Virus record (IMG/VR): IMGVR_UViG_3300038829_000263
Span: 6,111-70,110 of that record
Source of the DNA: a virus
Strand: one strand, 5' to 3'
Length of the DNA stretch: 64,000 nucleotides
The stretch's first letter is position 1, and the number at the start of each line of letters is the position of its first letter. Shown here in pieces: positions 2,770 through 5,661 of the stretch. Made by a program: the position numbers and the translations under genes. The notes below the pieces were generated by a model. The model worked only from the letters and a program-made list of their open reading frames with translations. It did not search any database and had not been told where the DNA came from.

Positions 2770-3257
2770 TGGCCACGGCACGAGAACTCCTCGACGCTCT
2801 GCGCGCCCGCGCGCGGAACTCGGCCGACCCTGGCAACTTCACGGTCGTGCTCCTCGTCGAGCGCGACCCGATCCTGACGCGGCTCATCGCGACCTGGCCG
2901 AACCTGCGCCTGCCTGCCGACCAGGACCCGAACGAGGTATGCCCACCCGAGACGCCCGAGGACCGCCGACTCCGCTGGCTCTGGTCGAGGATCCCCGGCG
3001 ACCCCTTCGGGGAGTGGCTGCGCCTGGCCGGCCTGCCTGACGCGGCCCACACGCGCCGTGCGTGCTGGATCGCGGCCGAGAACCGGATGGTGCTCCCCGA
3101 CGGCACCCTGGCCCCGGCGCTCCAGGGCCTCGTCCAGGCGCTCGTCACGCGCGCGGCGATCAGGCTCGGGGCGGCGCCGCCTCCCCCGCCCGAGCGGCGC
3201 CCAGCGCCTCCCCCGCCGGCGCCTGCACCGGCCGTCCCGGTCCAGGGCGCGCCGTGA
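2769..3257 (+). CDS. hypothetical protein, Pro-rich C-terminus
   Basis: GTG overlaps upstream TAG. Confidence 0.6.
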   Translation: MATARELLDALRARARNSADPGNFTVVLLVERDPILTRLIATWPNLRLPADQDPNEVCPPETPEDRRLRWLWSRIPGDPFGEWLRLAGLPDAAHTRRACWIAAENRMVLPDGTLAPALQGLVQALVTRAAIRLGAAPPPPPERRPAPPPPAPAPAVPVQGAP

Positions 3258-3628
3258 TCCTGCCGGGGAAGGCCCCGCACACGGGCCCCGACGGGATCGC
3301 CGTCGTGCGCCGCATGGCCCAGCGCTCGTGCGGGGTCGTGATCCCCGAGGTGATGGAGATGTTCAACATCTCCGACGACGCGGCCAGGAAGTTCGTCCTG
3401 CGCCTCGTGAAGCACGGCGTGCTCAAGCGCACGCGCGAGCGCCGACAGCGCCCGGATGCGGTCGCCTGGCCGCGCGGGGCGGGGGGCGTCGTGTATCGTG
3501 TTGGTAACAGCTACCGAATGGAGGGCGACGATGGGGCGGCTGGCGACGATGGCGAAGGCGGCGAAGGGGCTCAAGGGCCCGGTCCAGGTCACGTTCAGGG
3601 ACGGGACCTCGCGGACGTTCAAGGATGA
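3254..3628 (+). CDS. winged-HTH protein
   Basis: VIPEVMEMFNISDDAARKFVLRLVKHGVLKR is a wHTH pattern; 3' end overlaps the next gene out of frame. Confidence 0.6.
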   Translation: MILPGKAPHTGPDGIAVVRRMAQRSCGVVIPEVMEMFNISDDAARKFVLRLVKHGVLKRTRERRQRPDAVAWPRGAGGVVYRVGNSYRMEGDDGAAGDDGEGGEGAQGPGPGHVQGRDLADVQG

Positions 3629-3770
3629 GGTCGAGGCGGAGGCCGCCTGCAAGGGCCTCGCGCTCGAGCACAAGCGTGGGGCCTTCTTCGAGGCCGAGGG
3701 TGCGCTCCCCCCGCACGAGGACAAGCCCAGGCGGGGCAAGGACAAGGGAAAGTCCGAAGAGGGGGCTTGA
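3531..3770 (+). CDS. small basic hypothetical protein
   Basis: GGAGG SD upstream of ATG 3531. Confidence 0.55.
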   Translation: MGRLATMAKAAKGLKGPVQVTFRDGTSRTFKDEVEAEAACKGLALEHKRGAFFEAEGALPPHEDKPRRGKDKGKSEEGA

Positions 3771-3796
3771 CACCCGCGCCTCGCGCGCGATAGAAC
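3767..3796 (+). promoter_or_regulatory. sigma70-type promoter upstream of structured non-coding region
   Basis: TTGACA 3767-3772, 18 nt, TAGAAC 3791-3796. Confidence 0.55.
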
Positions 3797-3799
3797 CTG

Positions 3800-4200
3800 C
3801 CCCGCTGACGCGGTGGCCTGTCCGCCCCGGTTCACGCCGGAAGCGGGCCCCTGAACGGTGCCGAACGCCTCGTGCGGATGGTCCGGGCAGGGTCGGCCGG
3901 GCTAATACCCCGGTCGACGGGCTGACGTGGGACAGTCCTGTTCCTTCGGGGGCAGGGCCCGAGGACGCTCGGGCAGGTCGGCCAGGTGGCCGGCCGAGGG
4001 CGCAGGAGGTCCGGCCGGACCAAATGCGACCCGGGCCGGTGGACACGCTGACTCGCTGTGCGATAGGCCCCCCTGGGCGCCGACTCGACGCAGCCGACGA
4101 ACAACCTCGGGGAGACTTGGGGCCGAGCCGTCAGGGAAACCTGACGGCTCTCGTCGTTTCTGGACATCGCCTCCCGCGCCAGTTCCGTTGCTCCCCCAGG
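3800..4200 (+). ncRNA. candidate large structured ncRNA, family unknown
   Basis: No credible CDS; many nested stems including a c(UUCG)g hairpin 3937-3956 and a perfect 11-bp GAAA hairpin 4125-4150. Confidence 0.6.
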
Positions 4201-4238
4201 CAGATGCGCCTGCTGTAGGGGCACGCCCATGGCTTCCC

Positions 4239-4297
4239 CTTGCGCAAGGTAGCACGGGCGGCTAATATCGCCCTTGCCCGCCAGGAGCGGGAAGGAG
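4239..4297 (+). promoter_or_regulatory. repeated promoter-hairpin-SD cassette, copy 1
   Basis: CTTGCGCAAG palindrome; TTGCGC-N17-TAATAT; hairpin CCCGC/GCGGG; AAGGAG. Confidence 0.85.
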
Positions 4298-4304
4298 CGA
4301 CCGA

Positions 4305-4538
4305 ATGGCCCGGACCGACTGGAGCGAGCAGCAGGCGAAGGACGCGGTCAAGCGGGCCCAGGCGCGGGCGGGCAAGGGCTGGACCCTCCTCGGCCCCGAC
4401 CTCCAGAGCGCGCTCGTTTGCCGCGAGCTGATGTCGGTCGTCCTCGGGCAGGCCGAGGAGACGATGGTCAAGAACCCGGCCCTCGCGCACATCGCCGACG
4501 CGGCCCGCGCGGCCTTCGACATCCTCGGGGGCGAGTAG
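4305..4538 (+). CDS. hypothetical protein
   Basis: First gene after cassette. Confidence 0.7.
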   Translation: MARTDWSEQQAKDAVKRAQARAGKGWTLLGPDLQSALVCRELMSVVLGQAEETMVKNPALAHIADAARAAFDILGGE

Positions 4539-4824: not shown

Positions 4825-5661
4825 ATGGTCCAGGTCATCGAGAAGGGCGCCGAGGCGCGCCTGTTCGTCCACTGCGGCGCTCGCGAGGTCAGCCGCCAGG
4901 AGCTGACCGGCATCCCGACCCCGAAGCCGTCGGGGCGCTGGCACAAGCCCGTCCCGCACATCGAGCTCGTGCAGGCGATCGAGGCCGCCCTGCGCGAGCA
5001 GCAGCTCGACATCGTGGAGGAGCACCTGGCCGTCCAGGGGCAGGCGCGGACCTCGGCCGGGAAGTCGTTCGACGGCGCGGCGATGTTCGGGACCTGGCTC
5101 CTGCGGGCCCGCGGCGACCTGGCGGGCTTCATGCGCGCCGGCCAGTCCTTCGCCCTGGGCGCCCGCTCGGCCAACAACAACGCGTCGAAGGTCCAGACCG
5201 TGGCCGGGCTCAAGGTGTTCGTCTGCGACAACCTCGCCTTCAACGGCGACCTCATCACGATGCAGAAGAAGCACACGCTCAACCTGCGCCTCGAGCACGA
5301 GGTCAAGCAGGGCGTCCTCCGCTACTGCGAGCACATGGCCAAGTTCGTGACCGAGACCGACAAGGCGCGCGAGGTCGAGCTGACCGACGTGCGGGCGAAG
5401 GAACTGCTCTACGACGTGTTCGCGCAGGGCGTCCTCCCCTCCCGCTTCATCGGCGAGGTCCACGGGAACTACTTCGCGCCCCAGCCGGAGTGGACCGACG
5501 TCACGCAGCACCCGCGGACCCTCTGGGCGCTCCACAACTCGCTGACGCGGGTGATGCGCCCGGTGCCGAACGACGAGGGCCGGCTCGTCGAGCCCTTCAC
5601 CCCGGCGCAGAAGTTCAAGGCGACGGCGCGCCTGGGGAGGCTGCTGGCCCTTCTGAACTAG
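4825..5661 (+). CDS. DUF932/DUF945-family phage protein
   Basis: HKPVPHIEL...RSANNN...AGLKVFVCDNLAFNGD...KKHT signature. Confidence 0.8.
   Translation: MVQVIEKGAEARLFVHCGAREVSRQELTGIPTPKPSGRWHKPVPHIELVQAIEAALREQQLDIVEEHLAVQGQARTSAGKSFDGAAMFGTWLLRARGDLAGFMRAGQSFALGARSANNNASKVQTVAGLKVFVCDNLAFNGDLITMQKKHTLNLRLEHEVKQGVLRYCEHMAKFVTETDKAREVELTDVRAKELLYDVFAQGVLPSRFIGEVHGNYFAPQPEWTDVTQHPRTLWALHNSLTRVMRPVPNDEGRLVEPFTPAQKFKATARLGRLLALLN

What the first reader, a model, noticed from the sequence alone, without database searches (positions are those of the whole stretch)
3767..4200. About 400-nt highly structured non-coding RNA candidate with its own promoter
Seen: the largest gene-free gap in the left arm, preceded by TTGACA-N18-TAGAAC. 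Stems: 3817-3824/3884-3891 enclosing GTTCA/TGAAC (3830-34/3852-56); 10-bp stem 3892-3918 with CUAAUAC loop; 8-bp c(UUCG)g hairpin 3937-3956; 3958-3973; 3979-3992; CGACGA 4095-4100/TCGTCG 4151-4156 closing a junction that contains a perfect 11-bp GAAA-tetraloop hairpin GAGCCGTCAGG-GAAA-CCTGACGGCTC (4125-4150). Canonical UUCG and GNRA tetraloops point to the + strand. I could not match it to tmRNA, RNase P, SRP, 6S or intact group I/II intron consensus. Inference: a new large phage ncRNA class, possibly a protein scaffold or sponge.
Basis: partly seen in the sequence, partly recalled or inferred. Interest (0 to 1): 0.78.

Follow-up and report, generated by a model that had tools for sequence, protein, structure and literature searches.

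The report
Orphan structured RNA in phage gap
The largest gene-free gap of this 143-kb groundwater phage carries about 370-430 bases that fold, on one strand only, into an unusually stable set of RNA-style hairpins, so it is probably a non-coding RNA element; no relative of it was found, so neither its reality as an RNA gene nor its function could be confirmed.

Summary
The + strand folds far better than shuffles (z -4.2 to -5.3). It ranks 1-2 of 715 GC-corrected windows genome-wide, while the - strand is ordinary. Three of the genome's 13 long + strand hairpins with GNRA/UUCG loops lie here. No ORF in the gap looks coding, and no Rfam family matches.

No homolog was found, so covariation could not be tested. 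I searched phage and viral collections, a metagenome pattern scan, about 250 fetched loci, roughly 650 bacterial genomes by BLAST and about 450 by covariance models. Four syntenic relatives keep the upstream block (exonuclease to the 79-aa gene). After it they carry something else: a terminator plus promoter, a reverse-strand gene, or an AT-rich spacer. The segment is therefore a lineage-specific insert at a variable module junction. TTGAC-type promoters recur at that junction in three of the relatives.

Best reading: a promoter-to-terminator RNA "moron" of a new, so far singleton class, function unknown. A cis-acting operon-boundary element is almost as likely. "New class" is unproven.

The parts
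3531..3770 (+). 79-aa gene, the last gene of a block conserved in relatives (exonuclease, 316-aa protein, 162-aa protein, winged-helix protein, this gene)
   Evidence: Coding score +0.43. Homologs at 44-53% identity in G808, L238, L243 and L245, always at the end of the block.
3767..3796 (+). Promoter-like site TTGACA-N18-TAGAAC. The -35 overlaps the TGA stop codon of the upstream gene.
   Evidence: Unique in the window, 0 expected in shuffles, but not called by the sigma-70 scan. TTGACA-N17-TAACTT, TTGACA-N17-TATCGT and TTGACG-N17-TATAGT lie at the same junction in relatives.
3799..3892 (+). 5' hairpin set (3799-3817, 3820-3848, 3849-3892). An alternative pairing is 3817-3824/3884-3891 enclosing GTTCA/TGAAC.
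3892..3918 (+). 10-bp hairpin with the 7-nt loop CUAAUAC. The loop resembles an anticodon loop and shares GGCTAATA with the phage's repeated -10 element GGCTAATATC.
   Evidence: ARAGORN builds a poor 94-nt 'tRNA-Ile(aat)' around it. GCTAATA occurs 12 times in the genome: 11 are promoter -10 elements and this is the 12th, with about 1 expected by chance per strand.
3917..4188 (+). Predicted multi-helix domain closed by the long-range helix 3917-3932/4172-4188.
   Evidence: pair probabilities 0.38-0.99. The closure is lost if the RNA ends at about 4160, so it is the least certain part.
3937..3956 (+). 8-bp hairpin with a c(UUCG)g tetraloop
   Evidence: probability 0.99
3957..3974 (+). 7-bp hairpin with a GACG loop
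   Evidence: probability 0.99
3976..4053 (+). Long irregular arm ending in the palindromic hairpin 4008-4021 (GGCC loop)
   Evidence: inverted repeat I1
4055..4094 (+). Irregular hairpin arm
   Evidence: probability 0.96-1.0
4095..4156 (+). Three-way junction: closing helix CGACGA/TCGTCG, GAGA hairpin 4105-4122, perfect 11-bp GAAA hairpin 4125-4150
4125..4162 (+). Candidate intrinsic terminator: the GAAA hairpin followed by UCUCGUCGUUUCU
   Evidence: Covariance model R1 of this part picks up terminator hairpins behind genes in other phages. The relative G808 has a hairpin with a similar pyrimidine-rich, U-poor tail after its 79-aa gene homolog. The terminator scan does not call it, because the U run is too poor.
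4189..4223 (+). 3' hairpin between the structured segment and the next promoter
   Evidence: probability 0.4-0.5, weak
4237..4304 (+). Repeated promoter cassette (CTTGCGCAAG-N-GGCTAATATC), a short 5'-UTR hairpin and the Shine-Dalgarno site of gene 4305. Not part of the RNA.
   Evidence: Eight copies in the genome
4305..4538 (+). 77-aa orphan gene, the first gene of the next module
   Evidence: Coding score +0.59; no homolog among 5.8 billion proteins

Best explanation
Window ~3797-4160 (possibly to ~4225), + strand, is a lineage-specific non-coding RNA element inserted at a variable module junction of a ~143-kb groundwater phage.

It is most likely transcribed rightwards. Transcription would start at the TTGACA-N18-TAGAAC site that overlaps the stop codon of the upstream gene, and would also come from read-through of the upstream operon. 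It would end at the GAAA-capped hairpin at 4125-4160, which acts as an intrinsic terminator. The product would be a stable, compactly folded RNA of about 365 nt, a 'moron' that is an RNA instead of a protein gene.

It has about nine helices, three of them capped by UUCG, GAGA and GAAA tetraloops. It also has a 10-bp hairpin that displays a 7-nt A/U-rich loop. I infer that it works in trans as a protein-binding RNA, a decoy or scaffold.

Shown: the stretch is non-coding; the thermodynamic structure is exceptional and strand-specific; RNA-type tetraloops are enriched; there is no known family; related phages lack it.

Inferred: transcription, the two ends, stability and any trans function.
For: - Non-coding.
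- Structure above chance and only on the + strand. RNA energy rules give a much stronger signal than DNA rules (z -4.2 against -2.0).
- Three of the genome's 13 long-stem GNRA/UNCG hairpins fall in this one 450-nt bin.
- Many G.U pairs in the + strand helices explain the strand asymmetry.
- A promoter of the same TTGAC type sits at the same junction in three syntenic relatives.
- The terminator-like reading of the GAAA hairpin rests.
- No direct repeats or iterons, and no AT-rich unwinding tract (GC 0.71).
- The GC-skew minimum lies about 128 kb away, near the helicase genes.
Against: - No homolog anywhere, so no covariation.
- Four syntenic relatives have other content in this slot.
- The -10 hexamer is poor: it ends in C and is not called by the scan.
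- No terminator separates the segment from the upstream gene, so an independent gene is not demonstrated.
- The U tract of the proposed terminator is weak.
- The long-range closing helix conflicts with termination at 4160.
- Thermodynamic z-scores on one GC-rich sequence are known to over-call structure.
- The reverse-strand frame of ORF 3832..4230 keeps a mild third-position GC excess of 0.79.
Confidence: 0.4

Rival explanations
1. It is a cis-acting operon-boundary element rather than a gene. The hairpin array would be the structured 3' UTR of the upstream operon, protecting the mRNA against 3' exonucleases and terminating at 4125-4160. It could also be a long structured leader or attenuator between an ancestral TTGACA promoter and the downstream module, which has since gained its own cassette promoter at 4237.
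For: No terminator lies between the stop codon at 3770 and the structured segment. In relatives the same junction holds only a terminator plus a promoter for the next gene. The first terminator-like hairpin in our phage is at 4125-4160. Structure on the + strand only fits equally well.
Against: About 360 nt and nine helices are far more than termination or 3'-end protection needs. Other module boundaries of the same genome manage with 0-130 nt. The predicted multi-branch architecture looks like a folded RNA rather than a hairpin string. No riboswitch or leader family matches.
Confidence: 0.3
2. It is a functionless spacer: a recombination scar or a decayed gene at a hypervariable junction, whose hairpins are incidental to 71% GC sequence.
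For: It is a singleton, and the slot is variable in all the relatives examined. One relative (L243) has a 140-aa reverse-strand gene there. The reverse-strand ORF 3832..4230 has the highest third-position GC of the six frames, 0.79. Long open frames are expected by chance at this GC content.
Against: The structure signal is the strongest of the genome and is limited to one strand. GNRA/UUCG loops are enriched here. BLASTP finds no alignment between the L243 reverse-strand protein and our reverse-strand ORF (E > 100). No Pfam or PHROG family reaches significance for any frame; the best is one PHROG at E = 0.2. The only tblastn match is on the wrong strand, at E = 0.015 against the 701-nt gap alone with composition correction off.
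Confidence: 0.15
3. It is a DNA-level element: a replication origin, a packaging or recombination site, or single-stranded-DNA hairpins.
For: It lies next to recombination and replication genes (RecA-like, Cas4-like exonuclease). It contains a perfect 11-bp palindrome and a 25-nt imperfect palindrome.
Against: There are no direct repeats or iterons and no AT-rich tract. The DNA-parameter fold gives only z -2.0. The strand asymmetry depends on G.U pairs. The cumulative GC-skew minimum lies near genome position 137.7 kb, beside the helicase genes.
Confidence: 0.08
4. It is a degenerate copy of a known RNA: a tRNA-like module, or a remnant of a group II intron (a GUGCG at 3872, and a domain-V-like hairpin GAGCCGU...GAAA...ACGGCUC at 4125-4150).
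For: ARAGORN calls a 94-nt tRNA-Ile(aat) at 3867-3960. The hairpin at 4125-4150 starts with the domain V motif GAGCCGU and has a GAAA loop; that resemblance rests on my own knowledge of the domain V consensus.
Against: The cloverleaf has a mismatched acceptor stem, a weak D arm and a non-canonical T loop UUCCUUC. Rfam tRNA, Intron_gpII and the group II D1-D4 models give nothing even at E = 10. The hairpin lacks the domain V bulge and is 26 nt rather than 34 nt. There is no reverse transcriptase in the genome. The flanking ORFs are not exons, because each has its own stop or start and its own promoter.
Confidence: 0.05

Closest known systems
Orphan 'large ornate' bacterial and phage ncRNAs: GOLLD, ROOL, OLE (Weinberg et al. 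2017, PMC5737381; Kretsch et al. 2024, bioRxiv 10.1101/2024.12.08.627333)
   Same: Several hundred nucleotides long and multi-branched. Rich in GNRA-type tetraloops. Found in phages or prophages. No protein partner or function evident from the sequence.
   Different: No Rfam match to any of them. At about 365-430 nt it is shorter than ROOL or GOLLD. Those families rest on hundreds of covarying homologs, whereas this is a single sequence.
Phage morons (independent promoter-to-terminator units inserted between conserved modules)
   Same: It is inserted at a junction that is variable among syntenic relatives. It is flanked by a promoter-like site and a terminator-like hairpin.
   Different: Classical morons encode proteins. 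This one has no coding frame.
Intrinsic terminators and structured 3' UTRs
   Same: A GC-rich GAAA-capped hairpin followed by a pyrimidine/U tail at 4125-4162. Model R1 cross-hits terminators in other phages.
   Different: This explains about 40 nt of about 400. The eight other helices are not needed for termination.
Large structured RNA family of Blastocatellia/Pyrinomonadaceae noted earlier in this scan (e1-4262094, e1-4315685)
   Same: A promoter-to-terminator unit of about 0.5 kb with strand-specific GNRA/UUCG hairpins and no ORF.
   Different: Model R2 found nothing in the 151 Blastocatellia genomes searched. There is no evidence of kinship.
tRNA / tRNA-like elements
   Same: A 7-nt loop with U at position 33 and a purine at position 37, on a long stem. 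ARAGORN calls it.
   Different: Poor cloverleaf, no canonical T loop, 10-bp 'anticodon' stem, and no Rfam tRNA hit.

Membership tests
Any Rfam 15 family (including tmRNA, RNase P, SRP, 6S, GOLLD, ROOL, OLE, HEARO, raiA, group I/II introns, riboswitches) | Covariance-model score at or above the gathering threshold, or at least a suggestive E-value | tested here: not met
   No hit in the whole window at gathering thresholds. For 3600-4400 at E up to 10 there was only a chance snoRNA match at E = 6.7, inside the upstream gene.
tRNA | Canonical cloverleaf with a 7-bp acceptor stem, D arm, 5-bp anticodon stem, and a T arm whose loop is T-Psi-C-R-A | tested here: not met
   The ARAGORN model is 94 nt with a mismatched acceptor stem, G.U-rich arms and the T loop UUCCUUC. 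There is no Rfam tRNA hit.
Group II intron (domain V/VI) | A 34-nt domain V with the AGC triad and a 2-nt bulge, a domain VI branch A, a GUGYG 5' end, and flanking exons | tested here: not met
   The hairpin 4125-4150 is a perfect 26-nt stem-loop without a bulge. Intron_gpII gives no hit at E = 10. There is no RT in the genome. The flanks are separate genes.
Retron / DGR / DRT-type ncRNA | An adjacent reverse transcriptase gene | tested here: not met
   PF00078 is absent from the 143-kb record, while the control genomes ring.
Bacterial Y RNA (YrlA) | Linkage to Ro60 (TROVE) and often RtcB | tested here: not met
   PF05731 and PF01139 are absent.
Protein-coding gene | The genome's codon usage (third-position GC about 0.93), and homologs or a family hit | tested here: not met
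   All six ORFs score -0.49 to -1.07 per codon, with third-position GC of 0.61-0.79. No Pfam or PHROG family reaches significance.
Structured ncRNA (generic) | Conserved secondary structure supported by covariation among homologs | not testable with these tools
   No homolog was found in any collection searched. All copies of the phage are 100% identical.
Structured ncRNA (generic) | Strand-specific folding stability beyond the genome background | tested here: met
   z -4.2 and -5.3 on the + strand against -1.5 on the - strand. Rank 1-2 of 715 windows on the + strand, 226 on the - strand.
Independent transcription unit | Own promoter and own terminator; a detectable transcript | tested here: inconclusive
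   TTGACA-N18-TAGAAC is unique, and such promoters are positionally conserved in three relatives. However, the -10 is weak, and the terminator-like hairpin has a poor U tract. No RNA library was available.
Replication origin | Iterons or DnaA boxes, an AT-rich unwinding element, and a GC-skew switch | tested here: not met
   No direct repeats, GC 0.71, and the skew minimum is elsewhere.

The most novel reading that the evidence does not exclude
The segment is the founding member of a new class of large (~370-430 nt) phage-encoded structured RNAs. It would be carried as a self-contained promoter-to-terminator 'RNA moron' in the early region of a so far uncultured family of ~120-150-kb groundwater and sediment phages. 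It would act in trans on a host or phage protein. One possibility is that the long hairpin, which displays the phage's own -10-like sequence (GGCUAAUAC) in single-stranded form, titrates a transcription or nucleic-acid-binding factor.
Probability: 0.25. Interest if true: 0.7.

Novelty: new variant of a known kind. Interest (0 to 1): 0.42.

Why it matters
Large, intricately folded non-coding RNAs are rare, and each new class (OLE, GOLLD, ROOL, raiA) has opened new biology. Phages are a recurrent source of them. If this element is a real RNA gene, it would show that phage 'moron' slots can be filled by sizeable structured RNAs as well as by proteins. It would also give a compact ~370-nt candidate for structural work.

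It has a practical use too. The conserved gene block that ends in the 79-aa gene marks a hypervariable junction in this phage family, and that junction is a good place to look for further cargo.

As it stands, the case rests on one sequence. It is a well-supported candidate, not a discovery.

Tried and rejected
1. Sequence homologs. BLASTN against phages, an exact hairpin pattern in viral contigs and a two-loop pattern in viral contigs found nothing. A two-loop pattern in metagenome contigs gave 13 hits, which were 16S rRNA genes, a tRNA and chance matches. BLASTN and nhmmer against about 250 fetched loci gave only chance-level matches. BLAST of 401 Planctomycetota and 251 Methylomirabilota genomes gave only 30-70-nt GC-rich chance matches.

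2. Three single-sequence covariance models, R1-R3. I ran them against 96 loci, the relative G808, other relatives' loci, 151 Blastocatellia genomes, 151 Planctomycetota genomes (R2 and R3) and 151 Methylomirabilota genomes. Only chance-level scores appeared, and the R1 hits were terminator hairpins.

3. Synteny through DUF932 (gene 4825..5661). The 160 loci fetched shared no other gene with the window.

4. Variants in reads. All contigs of the phage are 100% identical, and a third run holds only a 156-nt identical piece.

5. Expression. No RNA holder is listed for this sequence, so this says nothing either way.

6. Decayed-gene test against the L243 reverse-strand protein. BLASTP gave no alignment. 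One tblastn match was on the wrong strand, at E = 0.015 against the 701-nt gap alone with composition correction off. Rejected.

7. Target search. RNA duplex energies between the RNA and the eleven cassette 5' UTRs gave inconsistent sites with giant loops, so the method was unsuitable and I dropped it.

8. Internal promoter at GGCTAATAC (3900-3908). There is no -35, and C sits at position -7 (and the sequence). Rejected as a promoter and kept only as a curiosity.

9. Host flanks. Both ends of the record carry phage replication genes, so there was no host DNA to identify the host.

Full report
**Context.** The window is positions 6111-70110 of a 143,219-bp IMG/VR virus record with 71% GC. The same phage occurs, 100% identical, on ENA and Logan contigs from one groundwater study. 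Both ends of the record carry replication genes: a ResIII helicase at the start, and UDG and a DnaB-like helicase at the end. The 'provirus' label is therefore doubtful. The finding lies in the early region, where all genes are on the + strand. That region runs RecA-like protein, Cas4-like exonuclease, a 316-aa protein, two small proteins, a winged-helix protein, a 79-aa protein (3531..3770), the gap, a 77-aa orphan (4305..4538), a 93-aa protein, DUF932 (4825..5661) and methyltransferases.

- The gap has no coding potential in any frame. Codon log-likelihood is -0.49 to -1.07 per codon, against +0.58 for the phage's genes.
- By a sliding score, 3768-4283 is the longest non-coding run of the entire genome.
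- Independent gene calls leave it empty, and no Pfam or PHROG family reaches significance for any of its ORFs.

**Is it more than chance?**
- The + strand folds with z = -4.2 (3795-4200) and -5.3 (3797-4162) against dinucleotide shuffles. The - strand gives -1.5, and DNA parameters give -2.0.
- As a genome-internal control I folded 715 windows of 400 nt on both strands and regressed the energy on GC content. The candidate ranks 1-2 on the + strand (z -3.3 to -3.5) and 226th on the - strand.
- Of the 183 + strand hairpins with a stem of at least 7 bp and a 4-nt loop, 13 carry GNRA or UNCG loops. Three of those 13 are in this gap, the only 450-nt bin on either strand with more than one.
- The asymmetry comes from numerous G.U pairs in the + strand helices.

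These are the marks of selection on a + strand RNA fold.

**Anatomy.**
- Three 5' hairpins span 3799-3892.
- A 10-bp hairpin at 3892-3918 carries the loop CUAAUAC.
- A domain then follows, closed in the MFE by 3917-3932/4172-4188. It contains the UUCG hairpin (3937-3956), a GACG hairpin (3957-3974), a long arm ending in a palindromic GGCC-loop hairpin (3976-4053), another arm (4055-4094), and a three-way junction (4095-4156) with the GAGA and GAAA hairpins.
- The local helices are robust in every fold. The long-range closure is not, and it disappears if the RNA ends near 4160.

**Ends of the RNA.**
- TTGACA-N18-TAGAAC (3767-3796) is unique in the window. Its -10 is poor, however, and the sigma-70 scan does not call it. 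Its -35 overlaps the TGA stop codon of the upstream gene.
- No hairpin separates the upstream gene from the structured segment, so read-through from the upstream operon is expected.
- At the 3' side, the perfect GAAA hairpin 4125-4150 is followed by UCUCGUCGUUUCU. A covariance model of this part cross-hits terminator hairpins behind genes in other phages. The relative G808 has a hairpin with a similar pyrimidine-rich, U-poor tail after its 79-aa gene homolog. I therefore read 4125-4162 as a probable terminator.
- Positions 4237-4304 are not part of the RNA. They are one of eight copies of the phage's promoter cassette (CTTGCGCAAG...GGCTAATATC, then a short 5'-UTR hairpin and the Shine-Dalgarno site), which serves gene 4305.

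**What it is not.**
- No Rfam 15 family matches, either at gathering thresholds over the whole window or at E up to 10 over 3600-4400.
- ARAGORN's 94-nt 'tRNA-Ile(aat)' at 3867-3960 is the only tRNA call in the genome. It has a mismatched acceptor stem, weak arms and a non-canonical T loop.
- The GAAA hairpin begins like group II intron domain V, but it lacks the bulge and is too short. There is no reverse transcriptase in the genome.
- There is no Ro or RtcB for a Y-RNA system.
- There are no direct repeats, iterons or AT-rich tract for an origin. The GC-skew minimum lies near the helicase genes about 128 kb away.

**Search for relatives.** This was the decisive test, and it came out empty.
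- Direct sequence and pattern searches found nothing. These covered phages, viral contigs, one metagenome scan and 652 genomes of two candidate host phyla.
- The downstream 77-aa protein is an orphan among 5.8 billion proteins. DUF932 neighbourhoods (160 loci) share no other gene with the window.
- The terminase, however, has many relatives at 50-63% identity. One of them, a 117,865-bp IMG/VR record (G808), is syntenic with our phage over most of its length.
- A full HMMER search with the 316-aa upstream protein gave further relatives, whose contigs I fetched.
- In all four lineages the block exonuclease / 316-aa protein / 162-aa protein / winged-helix protein / 79-aa protein is conserved at 35-56% identity, and it ends with the 79-aa gene. 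What follows differs in each:
  - G808 has a terminator hairpin, then TTGACA-N17-TAACTT and the next gene.
  - L243 has a real 140-aa reverse-strand gene with divergent TTGACA promoters.
  - L238 has a 388-nt AT-rich spacer with TTGACG-N17-TATAGT.
  - L245 has small ORFs and inverted genes.
- None of these contains anything like our RNA by BLAST, nhmmer or three covariance models. G808 has no comparably structured window anywhere.

Two things follow. The junction after the 79-aa gene is a hypervariable cargo slot. The structured segment is a lineage-specific insert there.

**Interpretation.** The evidence supports an RNA-level, + strand, non-coding structured element. It does not show that the element is an independent gene, nor that it belongs to a 'class'.
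- I favour (0.4) a self-contained RNA moron of about 365 nt that runs from the promoter at 3767-3796 to the terminator at 4125-4162 and acts in trans. Any mechanism, such as a protein decoy or scaffold, is inference.
- Nearly as likely (0.3) is a cis-acting boundary element: a structured 3' UTR and terminator for the upstream operon, or a leader or attenuator left between an ancestral promoter and the newer cassette promoter.
- A functionless scar or decayed gene (0.15) is disfavoured by the strand-specific structure and the tetraloop enrichment. BLASTP also finds no similarity to the L243 gene.
- A DNA-level element (0.08) and a degenerate known RNA (0.05) are unlikely.

**A curiosity.** The loop hairpin reads GGCUAAUAC, 8 of 9 positions identical to the phage's own -10 element GGCTAATAT. 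The heptamer GCTAATA occurs 12 times in the genome: 11 times as a promoter -10 element and once here. About one chance occurrence per strand is expected, so this is only a lead.

**Verdict.** This is a well-supported candidate structured RNA, but a singleton. Interest is moderate. The next step is to read this junction in the closest terminase relatives and test covariation there.

Noticed in passing
window 4237-4304, 23178, 24453, 47654, 50116, 53495, 57541, 59026 (A2 alignment): Downstream of the invariant GGCTAATATC in the eight promoter cassettes, each copy has a short hairpin. The stem sequences differ between copies but stay complementary, and the loop is AAGG/AGGA-like. A Shine-Dalgarno site and the start codon follow directly. 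This looks like a conserved 5'-UTR stem-loop with compensatory changes among paralogous copies.
   Followed up: partly
window 3254-3628 and 3531-3770: The winged-helix ORF (homologous to relatives over residues ~21-83) stays open to 3628 and so overlaps the 79-aa gene by ~98 nt. In relatives the two genes abut. A G-run at 3478-3488 lies where the coding signal changes frame. This could be a frameshift, a sequencing error or a true overlap.
   Followed up: no
G000 ends (genome 1-1503 and 141,292-143,013; L097, L098): Both ends of the 'provirus' record carry phage replication genes (a ResIII helicase; UDG, a 2OG oxygenase and a DnaB-like helicase). No integrase or host flank was seen. The record looks like a permuted or linear phage genome rather than an excised prophage.
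   Followed up: partly
window 58691-59090 (+); outside the window at window-coordinates ~100,691-101,290 and ~113,441-113,890 (+): These are the other 400-nt windows with unusually stable + strand folds (GC-corrected z about -3.1 to -3.3). The last one overlaps a 189-nt low-coding stretch with GC 0.75.
   Followed up: no
G808 (L230-L235), L238-L240, L243, L245-L247: A family of ~120-150-kb uncultured phages shares genome-wide synteny with this one. It has a conserved block running exonuclease / 316-aa protein / 162-aa protein / winged-helix protein / 79-aa protein. A hypervariable cargo slot follows directly after that block.
   Followed up: yes
terminase relatives P0113, P0114, P0131, P0135, P0137, P0141: Several large-terminase homologs of this phage family are ~1,060-1,100 aa long and carry intein or homing-endonuclease domains (PF14528, PF14890). 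The window's own terminase (708 aa) has none.
   Followed up: no
L094 447-2049: In the closest DUF932 relative (49% identity), the DUF932 gene is followed directly by a DpdA-family gene. This links DUF932 to the 7-deazaguanine modification module, which lies 8 kb further on in the window.
   Followed up: no
genome 140,980-141,492 (outside the window): A 513-nt low-coding stretch with GC 0.62 lies just upstream of the DnaB-like helicase gene and near the cumulative GC-skew minimum (~137.7 kb). It is a better replication-origin candidate than the finding's gap.
   Followed up: no
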